From the IMG/VR virus record IMGVR_UViG_3300002835_000006: 64,000 nucleotides of DNA; one strand, given 5' to 3'. Below the pieces are notes generated by a model. It did not search any database. It had not been told where the DNA came from and saw only the letters and a list, made by a program, of their open reading frames with translations. How positions within the stretch are numbered: the stretch's first letter is position 1; every line of letters begins with the position of its first letter. Origin of the DNA: a virus (lineage: Duplodnaviria > Caudoviricetes). Positions 35,973-55,688 of this stretch are shown in pieces. The position numbers and the translations under genes are program-made.

Positions 35973-37640
35973 TTAGTTTTTCCAAATTAAAAAATTATTG
36001 AGAACCAAATAATTTAAATTTCGGGTAATAAAAGTTTTGATTGCGTCTGTTGGGGTTTCGACAATTGGCTCACTCGGCCCGTTGAAACTTGTATTCAAAA
36101 GAACAGGAACCTGAGTTTTCTCATAAAAACTTTTAATAAGCGTATAAAATTTATAATTATTTTTTTCTGTTACAGATTGAATTCTAGCAGAATTATCAAT
36201 ATGAACTACAGATGGTATTCTTTCTCTCCAGGATTCTTTCACAGTTGTAGTCACTAACATGTGAGGAGAAAAATAATCCATATCGAATATTTCATTCTGA
36301 TATTCGTAAAGGACTGCGGGTGCGAAAGGGCGGTACCACTCTCTACCTTTAATATCTGCATTTATGTGACCACACATCCATTTGGTCATTGGGGATGCGA
36401 CAATTGACCTATTACCAAGCGCTCTAGGTCCGATTTCAGAACCGTCCTGAAACCACCCAATAACTCTGTTTTGTGTCAACCAATAGGTTACTTGCTCAAC
36501 TAATTCGTTGAAATCTTTATATTCTATGAAATCTAATTCAGGGTGTTCGTTCAGTGCTGATATAATCTCATTTTTATGGTATGGTCTCCCAAAATAAGGA
36601 GAAATTTTTGAAGTATTTTTGATTTCTGTAACTTTCTGAAGTGCATACCATGCGCACCCCAATGGGATACCACTGTCATCAGCAGGAGGTAAGAAAAAAC
36701 AATTTTCATACAAACCTGATTTCAGAATTAGTTCATTAGAATTACAATTCAAGAAAGAACCTCCAGCAACACAAATGTTTTTTGAATTGGTCATATTTTT
36801 TGCCATTTTCGCTAAAATTAGTGAAGCTCTTTCTTGTTCCCTTTGATATATTCCTGCAGCAACCGACCTTGAAAAGAAATCTGACGCCCAAGTAACTTTT
36901 GGGTAGATGCTGTTATTTAAAAGAGATATTTCCCCGTCAATTTCTTTCACAAACTCAGGTGCTTCAGAAACCAATTTTGGGTCACCGTATGATGCCAACC
37001 CCATCAGTTTTCCGGCGCTCCAAGTATGATTGGCGGGTTCGTATACCAATTGTAGAGTTCCCTCAGAATACATTGTTCCCAAGGAAGTTTCTTCATTAGT
37101 ATTCCAAGGAACCGGAAACTTTACCCATCTTTTATAGTGTTCTTCATAAGTGTCCTTTTTTAAATGAAGAATTGAAATTCCTTCAGCCCAATCAAAATCT
37201 GGATTCAAGTCCCACTTTTTGGGGTCATACCATTCGTGGGTTTTATTTTTATAAGTTATGATACTACCTGAAGCATCCGCAACAACAACAGCCGCTTCGT
37301 CAAATCCCGAACTGAAAAATGTTGAGTAAGCGTGTGCTAAATGATGTGGAATGAATTGTATCTTTTCTCGACTTATATGTGAAAATTTAGAAAAGAATTG
37401 GTCTTCTACATCATCAATATTTTCCGTAGTACTATATACAAAATAATCAATCTCCCTAATCGAACAACCTATCGCATTCAGACAATAGTTTATTGACTCA
37501 AAAGGGATTTTACCACCTTGATAAGCTCCATCGTGTTTGATTCTCGATAGTCTTTCTTGTGTTATACCCACAAGTATCCTTCCGTCTTCAATTATGACCG
37601 CTCCTTTGTCGTGGCCATTCGAAAAACCTAAAACTTTCAT
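35973..37640 (-). CDS. Carbamoyltransferase (NodU/CmcH/TobZ family), second copy
   Basis: TQERLSRIKH, HHLAHAYS, ADASG, AGKLMGLASYG, GGSFLNC, GPRALGNRS, REWYRPFAP, HIDNSARIQ, LNTSFN. Confidence 0.93.
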   Translation of the reverse strand: MKVLGFSNGHDKGAVIIEDGRILVGITQERLSRIKHDGAYQGGKIPFESINYCLNAIGCSIREIDYFVYSTTENIDDVEDQFFSKFSHISREKIQFIPHHLAHAYSTFFSSGFDEAAVVVADASGSIITYKNKTHEWYDPKKWDLNPDFDWAEGISILHLKKDTYEEHYKRWVKFPVPWNTNEETSLGTMYSEGTLQLVYEPANHTWSAGKLMGLASYGDPKLVSEAPEFVKEIDGEISLLNNSIYPKVTWASDFFSRSVAAGIYQREQERASLILAKMAKNMTNSKNICVAGGSFLNCNSNELILKSGLYENCFFLPPADDSGIPLGCAWYALQKVTEIKNTSKISPYFGRPYHKNEIISALNEHPELDFIEYKDFNELVEQVTYWLTQNRVIGWFQDGSEIGPRALGNRSIVASPMTKWMCGHINADIKGREWYRPFAPAVLYEYQNEIFDMDYFSPHMLVTTTVKESWRERIPSVVHIDNSARIQSVTEKNNYKFYTLIKSFYEKTQVPVLLNTSFNGPSEPIVETPTDAIKTFITRNLNYLVLNNFLIWKN

Positions 37641-38208: not shown

Positions 38209-38697
38209 TTAATAAACAAATGATTTTTGGAAATCATTCCAAATTTTGGATAAAGTATGATTTTCATTTACAAGGGTTGGCGCAAATGGTTTTTGTCTCA
38301 TAACCATTCTTGCTTCTTCAGGGGTCTTATCTGCTTTCTTTAGATTACATTTTTGACATGAGGTAACCAAATTGGTCCATTCATTCTTTCCACCTCTTGA
38401 TTTAGGTATCACGTGGTCTAATGTCAAATTTCTCGAAGAACCACAATAAACACATTGATGGTTATCTCTTTTATAAATTCTGTTTCTATTTGCACGTAAA
38501 ACTCTAGTGAAATGTCTTATGTATTTTAATAAACGTATGATTACGGGTCTGACATAAGTTTTGTAGCCTGTCACAATAGGATTATCATCAGATTTTACAA
38601 TCTCAGCTTTACCCTTGTCAACTAAAACAAACCCCCGTTTGACGCTTGTTACATTCAAGGGAGTATAGTCATAATTCAAAACCAAGACGTGGCTCAT
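38209..38697 (-). CDS. HNH endonuclease
   Basis: VLVLNYDYTPL; RDNHQCVYCG...LTLDHVIPKSRGG...W.NLVTSCQKCNLKK. Confidence 0.92.
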   Translation of the reverse strand: MSHVLVLNYDYTPLNVTSVKRGFVLVDKGKAEIVKSDDNPIVTGYKTYVRPVIIRLLKYIRHFTRVLRANRNRIYKRDNHQCVYCGSSRNLTLDHVIPKSRGGKNEWTNLVTSCQKCNLKKADKTPEEARMVMRQKPFAPTLVNENHTLSKIWNDFQKSFVY

Positions 38698-38740
38698 AAT
38701 AAAAATTTTAAACAAAAATAGTTTATTTTATTAAAAAAAC

Positions 38741-38925: not shown

Positions 38926-39675
38926 ATGAGATTTCTAAATTATTTCCAAGATTATATCACAGAGGCAAGATACTATTCCGATGAGAAATTTAATTGGGTT
39001 GCATCTAATATGGGTAGTTGGATTTTGGATAGTACAATAGATAATCCTGTAAAAATTCAGTCATTACCAATGCTTCAGGAATTTCAAAGTTGGTTGTCGA
39101 CAAATACTACAAAGGCCACAAAATCAAGTGATGATTTAGTTTTAGCCACAGACTATATTGATAGTTTCTTGAATAGTTTGAGTCCAAGAGATGCTCAAAA
39201 TTTTATCAAAACTGCAATGGAAAGATTTCCTATTGTAAAAACCAAAATTGCAAATTATCTAAAAGATGAAATACAAGATAATATTGGTAAAAAAAGAGGT
39301 AGGCCACTAGGTTCAAAGAACAAGCCAAAAATTGACTTAAACGACCCGAGTATAAAGGTTATAAGAAGACTTAAACCCGCACCTCAGGAACCTGTACAAG
39401 ACATTAGTAAAGATTTACCACCCGTAACTCCTCCATCAGTGATTGACCAACCTGAAGTTGAAATCTCAACTCCAAGAAGAGGAAGACCTAAAGTTTTCTC
39501 AGATGAAACAAGCGCAATTGATAGAGCTCGTTTCAAACAAGAAGGTAAAGATTATTGGGAATATCTCGAAGCAAAGAAAAAAATTGTTGATAATAAAATC
39601 AAAGTATTCAACCAACAATTAGTAAAACTTCAATCAAATATTGACAAAAGAAAGAAGTTTTGGGAGATAGAGTAA
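38926..39675 (+). CDS. AT-hook-containing putative DNA-binding protein
   Basis: KKRGRPLGSKNKPK and PRRGRPK motifs. Confidence 0.7.
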   Translation: MRFLNYFQDYITEARYYSDEKFNWVASNMGSWILDSTIDNPVKIQSLPMLQEFQSWLSTNTTKATKSSDDLVLATDYIDSFLNSLSPRDAQNFIKTAMERFPIVKTKIANYLKDEIQDNIGKKRGRPLGSKNKPKIDLNDPSIKVIRRLKPAPQEPVQDISKDLPPVTPPSVIDQPEVEISTPRRGRPKVFSDETSAIDRARFKQEGKDYWEYLEAKKKIVDNKIKVFNQQLVKLQSNIDKRKKFWEIE

Positions 39676-39733
39676 TCAAATTTTTCTGATAATTTTAATT
39701 TTTAATTTTTTTTATTATAATTTTGTGAGACTT

Positions 39734-39810
<77 letters not shown>

Positions 39811-39811
39811 C

Positions 39812-39883
39812 GTCTTCTTAGCTCAGTGGTAGAGCATCTCGCTGTTAACGAGAGGGTCCATGGTTCGAGACCATGAGAGGACG
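39812..39883 (+). tRNA. trnN: tRNA-Asn(GUU)
   Basis: TCTCG-CTGTTAA-CGAGA; complete cloverleaf. Confidence 0.92.
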
Positions 39884-39898
39884 CAAAGGGGATAAAAC

Positions 39899-39938
39899 GT
39901 GCAGTGGCCTCAGGGGTTCTAGACCCCACTGCACTCCA
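39899..39938 (+). ncRNA. tRNA-like minihelix (acceptor stem + T-arm + CCA) or deletion relic
   Basis: GTGCAGT/ACTGCAC 7 bp, GGGG-TTCTAGA-CCCC, T, CCA; abuts tRNA-Gly. Confidence 0.55.
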
Positions 39939-40011
39939 GCGGAAGTAGCTCATTCGGTAGAGCACGACCTTGCCAAGGTCGGGGTGGCCAGTTCGAGCCT
40001 GGTCTTCCGCT
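39939..40011 (+). tRNA. trnG: tRNA-Gly(GCC)
   Basis: CGACC-TTGCCAA-GGTCG; GCGGAAG/CTTCCGC, U73. Confidence 0.94.
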
Positions 40012-40017
40012 CAACAA

Positions 40018-40090
40018 GCCCGAGTAGCTCAGCAGGTAGAGCAACTGATTTGTAATCAGTAGGTCGCAGGTTCGATTCCTGTCTCTGGCT
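40018..40090 (+). tRNA. trnT: tRNA-Thr(UGU)
   Basis: ACTGA-TTTGTAA-TCAGT; one C.U mismatch in the acceptor stem. Confidence 0.92.
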
Positions 40091-40104
40091 CAAAATTTCT
40101 TGAA

Positions 40105-40458
40105 ATGGCACATCCCAACTTACATGCCAAATCTTCCGCAAAAAAATTTGGTGGTAAACCCGAAGATTACATACATCTACACGAGTGGTTAGATGAAACA
40201 AAAGGTTGGTTTGGTGATTCTCTCCACAGAATGTTCAGACATCATTCTGAAGGAATTTTTGAGATGGAACAACGTTTCGGAACTGAATTCAAGAACAGTG
40301 ATGGTAAAACTGTGTATACAAGGTATGTCGGTGAACAACATGTGAAAGAAGATTGTAATAACTACATACCTTCAGCTAAAGAATGGGTGAATAATCTGAG
40401 TGAAAATAAAAGACCGATTTGGATGATGAAAACTGTAAAACTTGAATTTGAAGATTGA
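40105..40458 (+). CDS. DUF6915-like protein
   Basis: MAHP..HA.SS.KKFGG..EDY..LHEWLDETK......HR..RHHSEGIF..E..FG...R.VGEQHV.ED. Confidence 0.65.
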   Translation: MAHPNLHAKSSAKKFGGKPEDYIHLHEWLDETKGWFGDSLHRMFRHHSEGIFEMEQRFGTEFKNSDGKTVYTRYVGEQHVKEDCNNYIPSAKEWVNNLSENKRPIWMMKTVKLEFED

Positions 40459-41033
40459 ATTATTCTCACAAAAATAAAATCTTATGGTTCACACCGATTC
40501 GTACTGCTTCACGAGCTTGTGTCCCAATTATGGAATATTTTAATTTTGATAGTACAAAATATCACGATGAAAATTTTCCAAAAGACTCGGATGACTATGT
40601 TTTAATAACCAACGTTCACAACCCATATAAAAGATTGGTGTCCATTTTTAAAATGTTTGAGGAACAAAAAAATTTATCAAACGTTTCCTTTCATGATTGG
40701 ATTCATACAAATTTGAAAAATTTAAATAAACACAATCAAAACCCACATCAATTATGGATTTCTAAATTTATCTTATCATTCAAAAAAAAACCTGATTATA
40801 TTGTAAGAGTAGAAAATATTGAAGAAGATTTATTGAAAATAAAATTTATTCAGGAAAATATGAGTAAGGAATTAAAAAAAATATTTTCTGAGAATATAAA
40901 AACAAATCAATACAGAGAAGATAATTTTGATTATTGGAAAAAAGAATACGATGAAAGTCTATCAAATTACATTTTTGATAATTTTAGAAATGATTTTGAA
41001 TTATTTGGATATGATAAGAATTCTTGGAAATAA
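40455..41033 (+). CDS. Sulfotransferase-family-like protein
   Basis: WFTPIRTASRA (PAPS-loop-like), VHNPYKRLVS, DYIVRVENIEEDL, F..DFELFGY. Confidence 0.65.
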   Translation: MNYSHKNKILWFTPIRTASRACVPIMEYFNFDSTKYHDENFPKDSDDYVLITNVHNPYKRLVSIFKMFEEQKNLSNVSFHDWIHTNLKNLNKHNQNPHQLWISKFILSFKKKPDYIVRVENIEEDLLKIKFIQENMSKELKKIFSENIKTNQYREDNFDYWKKEYDESLSNYIFDNFRNDFELFGYDKNSWK

Positions 41034-41051
41034 TCCAACATATTTATTTTT

Positions 41052-41768
41052 ATGAAAATAGAACAATCTTTACCCACAGTACTATCTCCCGAAGAAAAAA
41101 AATATCTTCGAAGTTATACAAGATACTTGAAAGCCTCAGGTATGAGTGAAGGACTTCTTGAGATTGAATTTGATGATTATGTAATTGATGATATTCATTG
41201 GGAGGAGTTCACCTCTTTTTCTAATAACTACAGAGTAGATATTACTGAAGAGTTACAACAAATCTTTGAAAAAATTTTTGATTTTATACAATCCAAAAAT
41301 CTTATTGAAGAACCTTATGAGGAATTAAATTATAGAAGACTTGAGATTGAAATAGATTGTAGAAATTCAACGATTACTATATCTGATTTTTATACCTACT
41401 ATGAAACTTCAGAAACCGAAGGTGTTTCTTACGAAGATGATGAACAACTAGACGAACTCTTTGATTCTATTTCAAAGGTTTTTGATGATAATGGCGTCAA
41501 AGATAAAGAATTCACTCTTGATTACAATGGTAGTGGTGACAGTGGTTATATAGAGGATAATTTCAGTAATAATATTCGTGTTCCAGACAAGGTCGAAGAT
41601 TGGTGTTATCGTCAGTTAGAAAATCATTTTGGAGGTTGGGAAATAAATGAAGGTTCTCAGGGTCAGTTTATCTTTGATTCCGATACAAAAACTATAGAGT
41701 TACTTCACACCGCAAATGTTGAAGAGCAAATCAATAAAACAATTTTCGAAGAAAAATTTTCTGAATAA
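41052..41768 (+). CDS. DUF6878-like protein
   Basis: LDYNGSGDSGYI...GGWEINEGSQG.F.F motif. Confidence 0.55.
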   Translation: MKIEQSLPTVLSPEEKKYLRSYTRYLKASGMSEGLLEIEFDDYVIDDIHWEEFTSFSNNYRVDITEELQQIFEKIFDFIQSKNLIEEPYEELNYRRLEIEIDCRNSTITISDFYTYYETSETEGVSYEDDEQLDELFDSISKVFDDNGVKDKEFTLDYNGSGDSGYIEDNFSNNIRVPDKVEDWCYRQLENHFGGWEINEGSQGQFIFDSDTKTIELLHTANVEEQINKTIFEEKFSE

Positions 41769-41793
41769 AATTTTTTTATTATTTTTGTCTAAT

Positions 41794-41879
41794 ACCTCGG
41801 TGTTGAAATAGGTAGACAAGAGAGACTTAAAATCTCTTGGACAGTAATGTCCGTGCCGGTTCGACTCCGGCCCGAGGTA
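41794..41879 (+). tRNA. trnL: tRNA-Leu(UAA)
   Basis: AGAGA-CTTAAAA-TCTCT; long variable arm. Confidence 0.92.
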
Positions 41880-41882
41880 CAC

Positions 41883-41914
41883 TTGACACTTTCAATATTT
41901 TGAATATATTTATA
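41883..41914 (+). promoter_or_regulatory. Promoter TTGACA-N16-TATATTTATA
   Basis: Same architecture at 45162-45194 (N17). Confidence 0.6.
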
Positions 41915-41919
41915 ACTGA

Positions 41920-42006
41920 ATGAAAACAATGAACTTCCATATAGAGTTTAGTAGTCAACAAGAGATTTGTTGGAAAACTCCTATGCGTAGTTCGGTAAAC
42001 ATGTAA
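41920..42006 (+). CDS. Putative 28-aa leader peptide MKTMNFHIEFSSQQEICWKTPMRSSVNM
   Basis: Hand-translated; lies between the promoter and a terminator. Confidence 0.45.
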   Translation: MKTMNFHIEFSSQQEICWKTPMRSSVNM

Positions 42007-42028
42007 ACTCCTGAAGAGTTATATATAC

Positions 42029-42068
42029 AACCTCGGACTACGTAAGTGGTTCGGGGTTTTTTGTTTTT
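42029..42068 (+). terminator. Terminator/attenuator hairpin with GUAA tetraloop
   Basis: AACCTCGGACTAC-GTAA-GTGGTTCGGGGTT, 13 bp including G.U pairs, then TTTTGTTTTT. Confidence 0.75.
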
Positions 42069-42118
42069 AGGAAGTTTATTTGGTTCTTTGAAATATTGGT
42101 TGTAAATTTGTAGTTCTT

Positions 42119-42190
42119 GGCCCCGTCGTCTAATGGTTAGGACGCCACCCTTTCACGGTGGAGATTTCGGTTCGACTCCGTGCGGGGCTA
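42119..42190 (+). tRNA. trnE: tRNA-Glu(UUC)
   Basis: CCACC-CTTTCAC-GGTGG. Confidence 0.9.
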
Positions 42191-42217
42191 CAAAATCTTA
42201 AATTTTAGCAATAATTC

Positions 42218-42290
42218 GGTAATCAAGCTAACTTAGTAGAAGCGTAGGACTGAAAATCCTGAGGAGTTGGAGCGTAACCAACGATTACCA
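42218..42290 (+). tRNA. trnF: tRNA-Phe(GAA), non-canonical T-loop
   Basis: GGTAATC/GATTACC; TAGGA-CTGAAAA-TCCTG; T-arm GTTGG-AGCGTAA-CCAAC. Confidence 0.75.
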
Positions 42291-42306
42291 CAAAAAAACA
42301 AATATT

Positions 42307-43116
42307 ATGAAAAAAACATGTTTAGTGATTTATGTCGGAAATGGATATTCCGAATTTGAACTTTCTCATGATGGTGCATACACCTATTCCACGGATATGA
42401 AAGAAAACTATGAAAATCATCAGGAGAATATTTTCAATCCACTAAGAGAACAAGGTTATGATGTGGAGTTTGCATTATTGACTAACAAACACGATAAGTA
42501 TGCCGAATATTTTCGTTTCTACAATGCCATTTTCTTGGATTACGATGAGGTTAGTCTACATGATGAGGAGGTAATGAAGAATTATTATTTTTGGAGATAC
42601 AATGTTCCTCCAGGTAACTTTCGTAGTGGAGGGAGATTTAAGAAATTGAAAAATAAAATTCCCGAATATGATATCTATGCAATCATCAGAACTGACACCT
42701 TTTTCCTCAAGAGTCTCAATGACCTGACTGTAGACTATGATAAAATGAATTGGTTATGGCCTGAGACAGATTGGCAAATGTTTACTGAATTTAAGGAAGC
42801 ATACCTAAGTGATGGTAAGACAGAATTTTGGCCTTGGCAAAAACATAATCGTGTAAACGGTAATGTTTTCAACATCGTACCAAAAAAGTTTTTCCGTATG
42901 TTTACAAATTATATCTGGATGGAACATGCAGCACTCTACGCGATGTTGAATGAGTTATCACCATTGGTGACCTTAGATGATGTCAACATGATGTTAGGAA
43001 TGGACAAATGTTATTGCACAGATATCAGATATTGTCAAAACCCTGTATATACGTTCAACAAAAAAATCATCAAGAATAGGTCTGATGCAAAACTCGAACA
43101 TTTTGGTAAAAAATAA
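42307..43116 (+). CDS. Hypothetical protein, possibly glycosyltransferase-like
   Basis: 269 aa; YDIYAIIRTDTFF resembles motifs of GT-like phage proteins. Confidence 0.55.
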   Translation: MKKTCLVIYVGNGYSEFELSHDGAYTYSTDMKENYENHQENIFNPLREQGYDVEFALLTNKHDKYAEYFRFYNAIFLDYDEVSLHDEEVMKNYYFWRYNVPPGNFRSGGRFKKLKNKIPEYDIYAIIRTDTFFLKSLNDLTVDYDKMNWLWPETDWQMFTEFKEAYLSDGKTEFWPWQKHNRVNGNVFNIVPKKFFRMFTNYIWMEHAALYAMLNELSPLVTLDDVNMMLGMDKCYCTDIRYCQNPVYTFNKKIIKNRSDAKLEHFGKK

Positions 43117-43121
43117 AATAT

Positions 43122-43193
43122 GGTCGGTTGGCCGAGTGGCTTAGGTGGAAGTCTGCAAAACTTTCTACACAGGTTCGAATCCTGTACCGACCT
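43122..43193 (+). tRNA. trnC: tRNA-Cys(GCA)
   Basis: GAAGT-CTGCAAA-ACTTT; U73. Confidence 0.92.
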
Positions 43194-43199
43194 CGAAAT

Positions 43200-43272
43200 T
43201 GGAATATAGCTCAGTTGGTAGAGTACTACTCTGATACGGTAGTTGTCGGCGGTTCGAGCCCGCCTATTCCAA
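43200..43272 (+). tRNA. trnI: tRNA-Ile(GAU)
   Basis: CTACT-CTGATAC-GGTAG; TGGAATA/TATTCCA. Confidence 0.9.
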
Positions 43273-43285
43273 CAACAATTTTGTT

Positions 43286-43816
43286 ATGAGACGAAAAATC
43301 ATTTTTATTGATGTTGATGGACCCTTGGCTTGGGGAACGTGGGATTTAGGACCTCAAAATTTCAATATCGAATGTGCTAATTCTCGCAAATTCCAAATTC
43401 CTTATCCTTGGGTACGGGAAGATTGTGAGGCATTACAGGAAATTTGTGAGCGAACAAATGCCGATTTAGTCGTCAGTTCAGATTGGAAACAATTCTATTC
43501 TATACGACAACTTAAAGACATTTTTGTCTCATACGGTGTATATGCACCTGTAATCGACCTAACAACTCATCTAAATTTGACTAACAAAATGAGTCCTCAA
43601 CCAGAGAAAGAAAGAGCACTTCAAATTGCTCAATGGGTCAAAGTCAATAAAGTTTCAAATTGGATTGCAATTGACGATATGAATTTATCCAAAGAGTTCA
43701 AATACCTGAAACCAAGAATACCTATGTGGAGACACGTACAGGTCGATGGGGATTGGGGTCACGGTGGCAGACTAAGAGATAAAGTTGAAGAATGTATCAA
43801 AAAGTTGGAAAAATAA
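43286..43816 (+). CDS. HAD-superfamily hydrolase (Swiss-Army-Knife RNA-repair-type HAD)
   Basis: IIFIDVDGPL, LVVSSDWK, NWIAIDD. Confidence 0.8.
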   Translation: MRRKIIFIDVDGPLAWGTWDLGPQNFNIECANSRKFQIPYPWVREDCEALQEICERTNADLVVSSDWKQFYSIRQLKDIFVSYGVYAPVIDLTTHLNLTNKMSPQPEKERALQIAQWVKVNKVSNWIAIDDMNLSKEFKYLKPRIPMWRHVQVDGDWGHGGRLRDKVEECIKKLEK

Positions 43817-43831
43817 TCATATCTTTGTTTT

Positions 43832-44380
43832 ATGAAAATCAATAGAGCGGATTTGTTATGGTTCTTGAGTAACATCCGTAGAAGACATGAAGGAAAAGAA
43901 TTGACTGATGAGAAGTTGGTTGATGAATTTGCCCACTACATGGAGGCGAACCCCCGTTGTATTGATGTGAATGGTGTTAGTAAAAGAGGGAGGTTCAGTT
44001 ATTCAACTGTTGGATACGGTGTATTCAGTTTGATGGGTGAAAAGTATAGAATGGGTAGAATTGAGGTTTTCGATAGAGAAGATGAAAGTGGGTATCAAGT
44101 TCATGAGGGAATCTACACTATGCCATTCGAAGTTGTAACTCAATTTGAGGATTTTATCGAATCGATTGAAACTGATTTACCAATCAACATTGAGATTGGT
44201 TCTCATAAATGGTGTGAAGAGGAGTGTGCAAAATCTTTAGGTTTTGAAAACTCCGAAGCAATGAGAGACCCTGAGAACGTGAAAAAGTATCAAAGGATGA
44301 AAAACGATGAATATGCACGTGAACAGGGTTATGAAGATTGGGAAGATTTGTTGAACAAAAGTAAATGGACTAAAAAATAG
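43832..44380 (+). CDS. Hypothetical protein
   Basis: 182 aa; TATCTTTG upstream. Confidence 0.7.
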   Translation: MKINRADLLWFLSNIRRRHEGKELTDEKLVDEFAHYMEANPRCIDVNGVSKRGRFSYSTVGYGVFSLMGEKYRMGRIEVFDREDESGYQVHEGIYTMPFEVVTQFEDFIESIETDLPINIEIGSHKWCEEECAKSLGFENSEAMRDPENVKKYQRMKNDEYAREQGYEDWEDLLNKSKWTKK

Positions 44381-44384
44381 TCAC

Positions 44385-44457
44385 GCGTGCGTAGCTCAAT
44401 TGGTAGAGTACTAGTCTCCAAAACTAGGTGTTTCAGGTTCGAGTCCTGACGTGCGTG
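44385..44457 (+). tRNA. trnW: tRNA-Trp(CCA)
   Basis: CTAGT-CTCCAAA-ACTAG; acceptor stem with three G.U pairs. Confidence 0.9.
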
Positions 44458-44462
44458 CACAA

Positions 44463-44588
44463 ATAGGTTGATTGGGGAAGGAATATACGTTAACCTGATG
44501 ATGGAGGTGGTATATTCGGAGTTGGAATCATCATAGTAATGCCAATCGTAAAAGGAGTTGTCCACGCGACCATCTTCTCCTTTCCTAT
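44463..44588 (+). ncRNA. Structured, pseudoknotted ncRNA candidate of unknown class
   Basis: Five Watson-Crick helices of 5-8 bp fill the tRNA-Trp/tRNA-CAT spacer; two of them cross. Confidence 0.65.
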
Positions 44589-44590
44589 AC

Positions 44591-44665
44591 GGACCCTTAG
44601 CTCAGTTGGTTAGCAGCGGCGCGCTCATAACGCGAAGGTCGTAGGTTCAAGTCCTACAGGGTCCA
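44591..44665 (+). tRNA. tRNA(CAU), probably Ile2 (lysidine) or elongator Met
   Basis: CGCG-CTCATAA-CGCG; G1-C72 rules out an initiator; overall similar to bacterial Ile2. Confidence 0.85.
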
Positions 44666-44670
44666 CAAAC

Positions 44671-44741
44671 TGTCGTATGGTGTAACGGTAACACAACAGA
44701 TTTTGATTCTGTTTTTCAAGGTTCGAATCCTTGTGCGACAT
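44671..44741 (+). tRNA. trnQ: tRNA-Gln(UUG)
   Basis: ACAGA-TTTTGAT-TCTGT; U1-A72. Confidence 0.88.
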
Positions 44742-44746
44742 CACAC

Positions 44747-44820
44747 GGTGGACGTAGCTCAGTTGGAAGAGCCCTAGCTTGTGGCGCTAGTTGTCGTGGG
44801 TTCGAACCCCACCGTTCACA
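44747..44820 (+). tRNA. trnH: tRNA-His(GUG) with genomic G-1 and A73
   Basis: CTAGC-TTGTGGC-GCTAG; GTGGACG/CGTTCAC. Confidence 0.88.
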
Positions 44821-44835
44821 CAAATATTTAATGTT

Positions 44836-45126
44836 ATGAATGAAATTGGATTGATAGGTAGTTTGTTATTAACATTCTGTGGTTTACCAGAACTCCTTAG
44901 AACCCTCAAGAATCGAAGATGTGACATTGGTTGGGGTTTTCTCCTTATGTGGTTTTTCGGGGAAATATTCTGTCTATTTTACGGTTTAGATTTGAATGAG
45001 GTTCCATTGTTGATAAATTATTCTTTCAATCTGATAATTGTAGGTACAATGTTATATTTCAAAGTCAGAGGAGAGTTGCCTGAGTGGTTAAAGGAGCAGT
45101 TTGCTAAACTGTGGTCGAGTAATTGA
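44836..45126 (+). CDS. PQ-loop/SemiSWEET-like membrane protein
   Basis: GLIGSLLLTFCGLPEL.RT.K...DI.WGFL.MW..G...LFYG...PLLINY; three TM helices. Confidence 0.75.
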   Translation: MNEIGLIGSLLLTFCGLPELLRTLKNRRCDIGWGFLLMWFFGEIFCLFYGLDLNEVPLLINYSFNLIIVGTMLYFKVRGELPEWLKEQFAKLWSSN

Positions 45127-45154
45127 CCCATTGGTTCGAATCCAATACTCTCCG
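45070..45154 (+). tRNA. trnS: tRNA-Ser(GCU)
   Basis: GCAGT-TTGCTAA-ACTGT; long variable arm; G73. Confidence 0.92.
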
Positions 45155-45236
45155 CAATAACTTGACAGTTTCTAAAGACTTTCATATATTTATAATCTCA
45201 AACGTTATAATAAACATTAACTAAAAAAAAACAAAA

Positions 45237-55261: not shown

Positions 55262-55298
55262 ACTAATAAATATGTCAAGAACTCAAAAAAGTCTGCGG

Positions 55299-55688
55299 TG
55301 GAGAAGACGGGAGTCGAACCCGTGTCTTGTTCGCGATAACTATAAGTGACTACACGTTTATTACAACATTGTTTCTCAATGTTCCGAAATATTAGGTTTG
55401 ATATATGTGAGAAACCTACCTACAAACAACTTGGTCTCAGAATTATTTTAAACGAGCTCTGACCTGTGACCCGTATAATGGACTTCTGTTCCTAGGTTAT
55501 ATGTCCTAACCGACCCGACGTTGTCAAAACTATCAAGCTTTAACAACAGCTTCCTCAGCGATAAGACCGAGAGCAGCCATTTTAGCAAAAGTATTGCCAG
55601 TTGTGTTTTAAATCAGTTTTTAAGGAGGTAATTTAGCTCCTACGTGCCACCTATACCTATACACGCCAATCGATGCCATTTCTTCCCC
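55299..55688 (-). ncRNA. ssrA: tmRNA
   Basis: 5' GGGGAAG pairs with 3' CTTCTCC-A giving G3.U70; T-arm GGTTCGACTCC; resume context ACAACT-GGC; tag frame ends TGA TAG. Confidence 0.92.

What the first reader, a model, noticed from the sequence alone, without database searches (positions are those of the whole stretch)
39899..39938. 40-nt tRNA minihelix with encoded CCA embedded in the tRNA array
Seen: GTGCAGT-GGCCTCA-GGGG-TTCTAGA-CCCC-ACTGCAC-T-CCA, i.e. a perfect 7-bp acceptor stem, a T-arm-like hairpin, U73 and CCA, with no D or anticodon arm. It ends exactly where tRNA-Gly begins, so processing of Gly would release it, and it is one of only three elements here with genomic CCA. Established: minihelices can be aminoacylated, and U73 is a Cys/Gly determinant. 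Inference: a decoy for tRNA-targeting or tRNA-sensing defences, an aminoacyl donor, or merely a deletion relic (TGGCC resembles a D-stem start).
Basis: partly seen in the sequence, partly recalled or inferred. Interest (0 to 1): 0.7.

Follow-up and report, generated by a model that had tools for sequence, protein, structure and literature searches.

The report
Conserved pseudoknotted tRNA-like phage RNA
The 40-base "minihelix" is the 3' part of a conserved 50-54-base RNA found in the tRNA gene clusters of uncultured freshwater giant phages; it copies the top half of a tRNA, adds a pseudoknot, carries a self-complementary loop that probably lets two copies pair, and matches no catalogued RNA family.

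Summary
The 40-mer is exactly as described: a 7-bp stem, a 4-bp hairpin with a 7-nt loop, then U and CCA, abutting tRNA-Gly. It is incomplete, though. The real unit is window 39888-39936, with an AAA trailer before it. An upstream GGGG pairs with the "connector" CCUC, giving a pseudoknot (a-b-a'-c-c'-b').

I collected 81 distinct variants from viral and metagenome contigs. All three helices keep pairing through compensatory changes (99.9% of cells paired; 0 of 500 shuffles reach this).

The T-loop likeness and the CCA are not conserved. What is conserved is a perfect 6-nt palindrome in the loop (78/81 variants, 11 different palindromes), which points to loop-loop dimerisation. Also conserved is stem-U-C at the 3' end, the same "N73-C74 without CCA" signature that 934 of 947 tRNA genes in these phages carry.

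There is one copy per genome, it is absent from some complete relatives, and it always lies on the tRNA strand. A tRNA starts 2-9 nt downstream in 64/81 variants. It has no Rfam match, no cultured-phage match and no bacterial match.

Best reading: a small RNA that mimics the tRNA top half, is cut out by tRNA-processing enzymes and can dimerise. Expression and function are not shown. It is not a deletion relic. This scan has noted similar kinds of RNA elsewhere, but not this family.

The parts
39812..39884 (+). Upstream tRNA-Asn(GUU), ending N73-C74. Context, not part of the element.
   Evidence: ARAGORN; Rfam; 3' end read
39885..39887 (+). AAA trailer. This is the generic trailer after tRNA genes in this phage group and is probably not specific to the element.
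   Evidence: AAA follows 330 of 943 distinct tRNA genes. One true variant has AA-G instead of AAA-G.
39888..39891 (+). Helix a, 5' strand (GGGG). It pairs with 39908-39911 and forms the pseudoknot.
   Evidence: Pair 5-27 of alignment A1 shows UA 16, CG 15, AU 4, GC 4, GU 1; pair 6-26 shows GC 37, AU 3. The strand is present in all true hits of a pattern that did not specify it.
39892..39898 (+). Loop L1, 7-8 nt and A-rich (AUAAAAC here), with two invariant A and a pyrimidine at -1 before helix b.
   Evidence: Alignment A1
39899..39905 (+). Helix b, 5' strand (GUGCAGU), the acceptor-like stem. It pairs with 39928-39934.
   Evidence: Seven pairs, 100% of cells paired. Pairs 18-49 and 19-48 show compensatory changes (CG 23, UA 16, UG 1).
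39906..39907 (+). Two-purine linker. It is GG here and AA or AG in nearly all relatives, and sits where tRNA positions 8-9 would be.
   Evidence: AA 57, AG 21, GG 1
39908..39911 (+). Helix a, 3' strand (CCUC). It stands where a D-stem 5' strand would stand.
39912..39912 (+). Invariant A between helices a and c.
   Evidence: the search pattern fixed it, so its weight is limited
39913..39927 (+). Hairpin c: a 4-bp stem (GGGG/CCCC) and a 7-nt loop made of U plus the palindrome UCUAGA (39918-39923).
   Evidence: Three of the four stem pairs covary. The loop hexamer is a perfect palindrome in 78/81 variants, in 11 kinds. RNAalifold predicts the hairpin independently.
39928..39934 (+). Helix b, 3' strand (ACUGCAC). 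It is contiguous with hairpin c (0 nt between), so b and c can stack as an 11-bp minihelix.
39935..39938 (+). 3' tail UCCA. U (N73-like) and C (C74-like) are conserved; the last two bases vary (UU 28, CA 18, UA 12, AU 9).
   Evidence: C74 is present in 934/947 tRNA genes of these phages, but full CCA in only 79.
39939..40012 (+). Downstream tRNA-Gly(GCC). RNase P cleavage at its 5' end would make the element's 3' end.
   Evidence: A tRNA starts 2-9 nt after the element in 64/81 variants.

Best explanation
Window 39888-39936 encodes a small non-coding RNA of a new family carried by uncultured freshwater giant phages.

Shown: it folds as an H-type pseudoknot with an embedded hairpin. Helix b (7 bp) and hairpin c (4 bp) are contiguous and can stack into an 11-bp helix like the acceptor/T-arm half of a tRNA. 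It ends in U-C, as the phage's own tRNA genes end in N73-C74. The strand that stands where a D-stem strand would be pairs with the 5' leader (helix a). The 7-nt apical loop carries a covarying 6-nt palindrome.

Inferred: the RNA is co-transcribed with the tRNAs and cut out by the enzymes that mature them. Trailer cleavage of the upstream tRNA would make its 5' side. RNase P cleavage at the downstream tRNA, or tRNA-type 3' trimming at U-C followed by CCA addition, would make its 3' side. RNase P may also cut at the L1/helix b junction, as it does in loop 1 of a model pseudoknot. Two molecules then pair through the palindromic loops into a symmetric dimer.

My best guess is that the excised, folded RNA is itself the product: a trans-acting mimic of tRNA acceptor ends that binds, titrates or occupies an enzyme reading such ends. 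Its target is unknown.
For: Structure: 40 aligned variants give 99.9% paired cells and 10 of 18 pairs with changes on both sides. No shuffle of 500 reaches this, and slid controls give 30-51% paired. RNAalifold finds helices b and c on its own. Helix a is present in all true hits of a pattern that did not constrain it.

Palindrome: 78/81 variants are perfect, in 11 kinds, against a chance expectation of 1/64 per hexamer. Columns 37-38 are adjacent bases yet always complementary (UA 37, CG 3), which cannot be an intramolecular pair.

tRNA likeness: stem-U-C occurs in 78/81 variants. 934 of 947 tRNA genes in these phages have C74, but only 79 have CCA.

RNA level and co-transcription: G-U pairs occur on the + strand only. 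328 tRNAs lie within 1.5 kb on the same strand and none on the opposite strand. The element abuts an upstream tRNA in 48/81 variants and precedes a tRNA by 2-9 nt in 64/81. No promoter-like or terminator-like site lies in 39400-40500.

A product rather than a mere spacer: there is one copy per genome, with a score gap of 64-78 bits for members against 16.5 bits or less for noise. At least 11 variants have no downstream tRNA. Many neighbouring tRNAs are separated by only 1-6 nt, so tRNAs do not need such a spacer. The junction core (AGU-RR-C..C-AG ... C-ACU) is invariant.

Precedent: bacterial RNase P cleaves a pseudoknot in loop 1 when a 3' RCCA is present (PMC12710915).
Against: No expression or end-mapping data exist. 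The public RNA runs I laid covered only the conserved tRNA parts.

The stack is 7+4 = 11 bp, not the 12 bp of tRNAs. The loop has no T-loop consensus across the family.

If RNase P cut before helix b, helix a would be lost, which sits awkwardly with its strong conservation.

The element is absent from three of five complete relatives, so it is dispensable.

Much of the apparent invariance was imposed by my search patterns, and family diversity is modest (83% mean column identity).

Dimerisation is inferred from sequence alone. No target or phenotype is known.
Confidence: 0.55

Rival explanations
1. It is a cis-acting processing signal ('punctuation'), like the t-elements of plant mitochondria. 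On this reading the fold only tells RNase P and the 3'-end enzymes where to cut, or insulates the folding of neighbouring tRNAs, and the excised piece has no function of its own.
For: The element always lies in tRNA arrays on the tRNA strand, and 64/81 variants lie 2-9 nt before a tRNA. In several lineages it sits at the border between the last tRNA-like gene and an ORF that starts about 20-30 nt downstream (L100, L107, L125, L097), which is where a t-element would be useful. It carries the stem-U-C signature of these phages' tRNAs.
Against: tRNAs already carry these signals, and many neighbours are 1-6 nt apart. This model explains neither the covarying palindromic loop and helix a nor the invariant junction. 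There is a single copy per genome and none in three complete relatives. L157 has the element alone in an AT-rich intergenic region.
Confidence: 0.2
2. It is a small self-cleaving ribozyme that cuts the tRNA polycistron. Its topology (a-b-a'-c-c'-b' with an A-rich linker) equals that of the pistol ribozyme without P1. Theta (HDV-like) ribozymes set a precedent for ribozymes beside phage tRNAs.
For: The helix order and the A-rich 7-8-nt linker match pistol (my recollection of the published pistol fold). The junction nucleotides are invariant. Theta ribozymes lie next to phage tRNAs (PMC10879173). An RNA-repair HAD domain gene lies in the same array at 43286-43816.
Against: No pistol, HDV-like, twister, hatchet or hammerhead model matches, even at E up to 10. 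The junctions are far shorter than in pistol (2, 1 and 0 nt), and no unpaired dinucleotide lies between c and b' where pistol cleaves. There is no P3/L3 for an HDV fold. The generic N73-C74-AAA trailers also occur where 5-nt spacers leave no room for a ribozyme.
Confidence: 0.07
3. It is a DNA-level element: a palindromic protein-binding site, or a hairpin or cruciform used in recombination or in the mobility of tRNA-array modules.
For: The loop is a perfect DNA palindrome. The element's position within arrays varies between phages. An HNH endonuclease gene lies 1.2 kb upstream in the window.
Against: The palindrome changes identity 11 times, whereas a protein site would keep its sequence. G-U pairs occur on the + strand only, which would be A-C mismatches on the other strand. 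A pseudoknot has no DNA rationale. The orientation is always that of the tRNAs.
Confidence: 0.04
4. It is a decaying remnant of a tRNA gene that lost its D-loop, anticodon arm and variable region, and has no function.
For: The layout 7 + 2 + 4 + 1 + T-arm-like hairpin + 7 + N73 + C74 can be read as a tRNA with positions 15-48 deleted. The linker and strand 'AR-CCNC-AG' resemble tRNA positions 8-15 (UAGCUCAG) at 5 of 8 places (my reading).
Against: 81 variants show compensatory changes in every helix, plus a new helix with the leader and a selected palindrome. None of 1763 tRNAs shares the acceptor stem. The element is conserved where the flanking protein is 49% identical. An ancient tRNA origin remains possible, but the present element is under selection.
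Confidence: 0.02

Closest known systems
Phage T4 stable RNAs species 1 and 2 (rnaC, rnaD), and the stable RNAs of the T5 tRNA region
   Same: These are non-tRNA small RNAs embedded in a phage tRNA operon on the tRNA strand, butt-joined to tRNAs (T4 annotation). T4 rnaC ends in a tRNA-like T-arm plus stem (sequence read). From my own knowledge, the T4 species are matured by RNase P and their function is still unknown.
   Different: There is no sequence or structure homology: model R1 gives no hit on rnaC or rnaD, and its best score in the T4 region is 10.6 bits, elsewhere. The T4 RNAs are 119-139 nt, against about 50 nt here. A leader pseudoknot and a palindromic loop are not described for them.
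t-elements of plant mitochondria, mascRNA and tRNA punctuation
   Different: They occur in a different domain of life and are unrelated in sequence. mascRNA scores only 12.6 bits against a cut-off of 42.5. They keep a T-loop, and they lack the leader pseudoknot and the palindrome.
Pistol self-cleaving ribozyme (Rfam RF02679)
   Same: It is about 50 nt, with the same order of helices (PK5'-linker-P2-PK3'-P3 hairpin-P2') and an A-rich linker.
   Different: Here there is no P1 hairpin, the junctions are 2/1/0 nt instead of 5/3/2, and no cleavage dinucleotide is visible. There is no Rfam hit.
Theta (minimal HDV-like) ribozymes next to phage tRNAs (PMC10879173)
   Same: They are pseudoknotted RNAs of about 50 nt that directly follow phage tRNA genes and take part in tRNA 3' processing.
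   Different: The HDV fold needs P3/L3 between P2 and P1' and a J4/2 with a catalytic C. Here only 2 nt separate b from a', and 0 nt separate c from b'. No HDV-family hit was found.
Kissing-loop dimerisation sites such as the HIV-1 DIS (reviewed in PMC7357161)
   Same: A hairpin loop carries a 6-nt palindrome whose identity varies while self-complementarity is kept.
   Different: Here the loop has 7 nt with one unpaired base, sits on a 4-bp stem, and belongs to a DNA phage small RNA. Dimerisation is inferred, not shown.
RNase P model pseudoknot substrate (biotin aptamer; PMC12710915)
   Same: It is an H-type pseudoknot whose second stem plus a 3' RCCA acts as an acceptor mimic, and RNase P cleaves in loop 1 next to that stem.
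   Different: That substrate is artificial. Here the 3' end is U-C-N-N (CCA in 22% of variants), and cleavage has not been tested.
preQ1-II riboswitch (RF01054)
   Same: It is an H-type pseudoknot with a hairpin embedded in the last loop (my own knowledge).
   Different: It lies upstream of ORFs in Lactobacillales and sequesters a ribosome-binding site. There is no Rfam hit here and no expression platform.

Membership tests
tRNA / tRNA minihelix (acceptor-T arm mimic) | 7-bp acceptor-type stem followed by a single discriminator base | tested here: met
   Helix b has 7 bp with 100% of cells paired and two covarying pairs, followed by U in all variants, although the search pattern fixed that U.
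tRNA / tRNA minihelix (acceptor-T arm mimic) | 3' end as in the organism's own tRNA genes | tested here: met
   C follows the discriminator in 78/81 variants. 934/947 tRNA genes in these phages have C74 and only 79 have CCA.
tRNA / tRNA minihelix (acceptor-T arm mimic) | Genomically encoded or conserved CCA | tested here: not met
   UCCA occurs in 18/81 variants; UCUU, UCUA and UCAU occur in most others. This is also not met by 92% of the phages' real tRNAs.
tRNA / tRNA minihelix (acceptor-T arm mimic) | T arm: 5-bp stem and a UUCRANY loop | tested here: not met
   The stem is 4 bp. The loop is N plus a variable palindrome (GAUAUC, GGUACC, CCUAGG and others). ARAGORN and Rfam tRNA models do not call it.
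tRNA / tRNA minihelix (acceptor-T arm mimic) | Hairpin contiguous with the acceptor 3' strand, allowing coaxial stacking | tested here: met
   There are 0 nt between c and b' in all variants. The stacking itself is inferred.
tRNA / tRNA minihelix (acceptor-T arm mimic) | Cleaved by RNase P, extended by CCA-adding enzyme, aminoacylated | not testable with these tools
   Needs biochemistry. The stem has U2:A71 and G3:C70 or A3:U70, so Ala (G3:U70) and Gly (C2:G71) acceptor determinants, named from my own knowledge, are absent.
Pistol ribozyme | Match to the family covariance model, including P1 and the conserved junction nucleotides | tested here: not met
   No hit at E up to 1 over 7 kb, or at E up to 10 over 66 nt.
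HDV-like / theta ribozymes | Nested double pseudoknot with P3/L3 and a J4/2 catalytic C | tested here: not met
   Only 2 nt lie between b and a', and 0 nt between c and b'. There is no Rfam hit.
T4 rnaC / rnaD | Sequence or structure homology | tested here: not met
   Model R1 searched with filters off on T4 69000-75000 gives no hit at rnaC or rnaD.
Any Rfam 15 family | Covariance-model match | tested here: not met
   Searches (window; seven relatives' arrays) find only tRNAs.
Kissing-loop dimerisation element | Self-complementary loop kept through compensatory change | tested here: met
   78/81 variants have a perfect hexamer palindrome, in 11 kinds. Pairs 35-40, 36-39 and 37-38 all covary.
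Kissing-loop dimerisation element | Physical dimer | not testable with these tools
   RNAcofold favours a dimer by about 8-9 kcal/mol, but it models extended duplexes, not kissing complexes.

The most novel reading that the evidence does not exclude
The excised RNA is a CCA-tailed, homodimeric mimic of tRNA acceptor ends that giant phages use in trans. It could act as a decoy or sponge for host defence enzymes that attack or modify tRNA 3' ends or acceptor stems, or as a regulator of the tRNA-end machinery. That would make it a natural phage small RNA whose function depends on a kissing-loop dimer.
Probability: 0.12. Interest if true: 0.85.

Novelty: new variant of a known kind. Interest (0 to 1): 0.6.

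Why it matters
Phage tRNA operons have long been known to carry extra stable RNAs of unknown role; the T4 species 1 and 2 RNAs have been unexplained for about fifty years. This family is small enough (about 50 nt) for quick in vitro tests and has well-defined helices. It also offers two unusual handles. One is a leader-to-"D-stem" pseudoknot attached to a tRNA top half. The other is a loop palindrome that changes identity eleven times while staying a palindrome, which is the signature of RNA-RNA dimerisation and is rarely seen in natural small RNAs. In addition, the data show that these giant phages encode N73-C74 but not CCA on almost all their tRNAs. That points to a particular 3'-end maturation route which the element appears to share. 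If the RNA proves to be a processed, dimeric acceptor-end mimic, it would add a new kind of player to phage-host conflicts over tRNA.

Tried and rejected
1. RNA-seq: 23 public runs shared only 0-25% of sampled words. Four were laid. Their contigs cover the tRNA parts, mostly from other organisms. One low-depth RNA-run contig overlaps 39896-39937, and one run of unknown kind has relatives that join Asn to Gly without the element. All were contigs, so they give no ends. This is no evidence for or against expression.

2. Cultured phages (INPHARED): no match to the 54-mer at E up to 1. The 401-nt query hit only tRNAs. The neighbouring DUF6915 protein has only distant relatives, below 60% identity.

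3. Prokaryote genomes: the pattern scan gave 3 hits, all chance matches without complementary helices.

4. Rfam: nothing at permissive thresholds.

5. Parent tRNA: none of 1763 predicted tRNAs begins with GTRYAGT.

6. Extra copies or divergent relatives: model R1 finds only the one copy in the window. In 85 related loci nothing scores between 16.5 and 64 bits.

7. Promoter and terminator scan of 39400-40500: nothing.

8. Supplementary tables of the IMG/VR structured-RNA catalogue (PMC10690425) are not held. I therefore cannot exclude that the motif is among its 10,006 unnamed candidates.

9. Complementarity of L1 to the loop or to the 3' tail: inspected by eye, not consistent across variants.

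10. HDV-like mapping: rejected because P3/L3 is missing.

Full report
**Observation.** The window is part of an 80.6-kb IMG/VR virus record estimated to be 27% complete. Complete relatives are 274-326 kb, so this is a giant phage, and the samples holding relatives are mostly lake water. tRNA-Asn ends at 39883/4 and tRNA-Gly starts at 39939. Only tRNA-Pro, tRNA-Arg and this element carry a genomic CCA in the window. Folded alone, the 40-mer is only modestly better than shuffles (z = -2.2), so the case rests on comparison.

**Relatives.** The neighbouring DUF6915 gene (40105-40458) has 579 relatives in IMG/VR, and 80 loci were fetched. Listing all inter-tRNA spacers in those loci showed that the Asn-to-Gly spacer of the window recurs as a 54-60-nt spacer, mostly between tRNA-Asp and tRNA-Gly. 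Three pattern scans enlarged the family: viral contigs, metagenomes, and a scan that left the 5' part unspecified. This gave 81 distinct variants after removing chance hits (L183, L212, L246, L265, L268).

The family has no match in 50,697 GenBank phage records. In one genome each of 185,579 prokaryote species there were only three chance hits. Rfam 15 gave nothing.

**Structure.** The alignment of 40 variants (A1) shows four sets of covarying positions.
- Helix b (window 39899-39905 with 39928-39934) is 7 bp, with two pairs showing compensatory change.
- Hairpin c (39913-39916 with 39924-39927) is 4 bp, with three covarying pairs.
Its second pair occurs as UA 16, CG 15, AU 4, GC 4 and GU 1.
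- Because helix a's 5' strand lies before helix b and its 3' strand lies inside helix b, the fold is an H-type pseudoknot with hairpin c embedded in its last loop (order a-b-a'-c-c'-b').

Overall 99.9% of cells are paired, against 86% in column shuffles and 30-51% with slid partners. RNAalifold finds b and c on its own. In the scan that did not specify the 5' part, every true hit still had a complementary helix a. G-U pairs occur on the + strand only, so the structure is read at the RNA level.

**The loop.** The 7-nt loop is one variable base plus a hexamer that is a perfect palindrome in 78 of 81 variants. Eleven different palindromes occur: GAUAUC, GGUACC, CCUAGG, GCUAGC, GACGUC, CUUAAG, UCUAGA, GCAUGC, UCCGGA, CUGCAG and GAGCUC. 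The two central bases are neighbours and cannot pair within one hairpin, yet they are always complementary (UA 37, CG 3).

Selection for self-complementarity without selection for sequence is what an RNA-RNA loop-loop (kissing) homodimer predicts. It is not what a protein site or a T-loop predicts. The window's UUCUAGA looks like a T-loop only by accident.

**The 3' end.** After helix b comes U in all variants and C in 78 of 81. The next two bases vary (UU 28, CA 18, UA 12, AU 9), so the encoded CCA is not a family feature.

The phage's own tRNA genes behave in the same way, however. Of 947 distinct tRNA genes in the fetched loci, 934 have C at position 74 but only 79 have CCA, and CAA is the commonest continuation (the window's tRNAs). 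The element therefore carries the group-specific signature "7-bp stem, N73, C74". I take this as the best evidence that its 3' end is handled like a tRNA end. Trimming to C74 and completion by a CCA-adding enzyme are inference.

**Context.**
- All 328 tRNAs within 1.5 kb of the 81 variants are on the element's strand.
- 48 variants abut an upstream tRNA.
- 64 are followed by a tRNA 2-9 nt after the conserved U: Gly 41, Met 7, and also Glu, Thr, Cys, Gln, Ser, Leu and Arg.
- At least 11 have no tRNA downstream. Some of these sit before an ORF, some before a U-run, and one sits alone in an AT-rich spacer.
- There is one copy in the window (71.6 bits; the next hit is 13 bits).
- There is one copy in two complete relatives and none in three others.
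- No predicted tRNA shares its acceptor sequence (0 of 1763).
- The element is about 80% identical, with compensatory changes, in genomes whose flanking 249-aa protein is 49% identical.
- No promoter-like or terminator-like site lies nearby.

**What it is.** It is a conserved, structured, strand-specific RNA under selection, and not a relic. Its architecture can be read as a tRNA top half:
- acceptor-like helix b, stacked on hairpin c;
- two purines where positions 8-9 would be;
- a 4-nt strand where the D-stem 5' strand would be, whose partner comes from the 5' leader through a 7-8-nt A-rich loop.

The most economical mechanism is that the RNA is excised from the tRNA polycistron by the tRNA-processing enzymes and then persists as a compact pseudoknot able to dimerise. 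RNase P cleavage at the L1/helix b junction is possible, because bacterial RNase P cuts a model pseudoknot in loop 1 next to an acceptor-like stem with 3' RCCA (PMC12710915). It would remove helix a, so I leave open whether the mature form has about 54 or about 40 nt.

What the RNA does is not shown. I favour a trans-acting acceptor-end mimic for three reasons: tRNAs need no such spacer, the loop and junction are under selection, and the element also occurs away from tRNAs. The rivals are as follows.
- A t-element-like processing signal (0.2).
- A self-cleaving ribozyme with pistol-like topology (0.07). No model matches, the junctions are too short, and there is no HDV-type P3/L3 (compare theta ribozymes, PMC10879173).
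- A DNA-level palindrome (0.04).
- A dead tRNA remnant (0.02).

**Comparison with known systems.** The closest in kind are the T4 species 1 and 2 RNAs. They sit in the T4 tRNA operon in the same butt-joined way but are not homologous. Plant-mitochondrial t-elements and mascRNA are tRNA top-half mimics used as processing signals. Kissing-loop dimerisation sites such as the HIV-1 DIS share the covarying palindrome (review PMC7357161).

Earlier notes of this scan describe other undescribed structured RNAs in phage tRNA arrays, including one in this same window (44463-44588) and a "top-half tRNA with pseudoknot" in a marine phage. By sequence look-up this family had not been noted on other DNA.

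**Limits.** There are no expression data. Several "invariant" positions were fixed by my search patterns. Family diversity is moderate. Dimerisation, processing and function are all inferred.

Noticed in passing
L006:2631-2677, L012:2787-2833, L060:2204-2258, L079:4979-5031 (spacers Gly->Thr, Asp->Thr, Cys->Lys): A second family of 47-55-nt inter-tRNA RNAs has the same pseudoknot order (a-b-a'-c-c'-b') but a different sequence. It has a short 1-2-nt first loop, a conserved AWGA junction and a conserved 7-nt hairpin loop UGAUGAR. Its tail is AAAU with no C74-like base. It is not in Rfam.
   Followed up: partly
All fetched loci; window tRNAs at 39734-45155: Nearly all tRNA genes of this phage group encode N73-C74 but not CCA (934/947 have C74, 79 have CCA, 480 have CAA). 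AAA is the commonest trailer. This suggests a particular 3'-end maturation route that keeps C74.
   Followed up: partly
L012:4436-4534, L006:4433-4530 and many others (spacer Arg(UCU)->Leu(UAG)): A conserved 95-115-nt structured spacer RNA closed by a long terminal stem is present in most relatives, in at least two sequence types. It has no Rfam match.
   Followed up: no
L040:1735-1852, L057:1663-1779, L009:1736-1839, L029:1981-2085: A conserved 104-118-nt spacer RNA lies between tRNA-Asp or tRNA-Gly and the next tRNA and shares the motif CAAAATCCAATC...GATTGGGCTAA. It has no Rfam match.
   Followed up: no
L006:4248-4359, L020:2800-2912: A 112-113-nt spacer RNA is closed by GTAACGATTCG...CGTTACA.
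   Followed up: no
L118 (downstream of the element), L099/L107/L087 (upstream of it): These are tRNA-like genes with acceptor stems but long internal insertions (possible introns or long extra arms) that ARAGORN does not call. They abut the element just as ordinary tRNAs do.
   Followed up: no
window 43286-43816 (+): An ORF inside the tRNA array carries the HAD domain of 'Swiss Army Knife' RNA-repair proteins (PF18143, E = 3.8e-19).
   Followed up: no
window 55297-55688 (-): A phage-borne tmRNA gene has the predicted tag GNTFAKMAALGLIAEEAVVKA.
   Followed up: no
window 38209-38715 (-) and 35973-37640 (-): An HNH endonuclease gene and a carbamoyltransferase gene lie just upstream of the tRNA array.
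   Followed up: no
L100, L107, L125, L097, L087 (about 20-110 nt downstream of the element): In one phage lineage the element lies at the end of the tRNA array before a conserved ORF that begins MKNEVYTD... and contains the motif FHFNPY...W.AI.RD.Y.
   Followed up: no
L088 and L130 (3' of the element): In these two loci helix b is followed directly by a run of 8-9 U, so the element may double as an intrinsic terminator at the end of the array.
   Followed up: no
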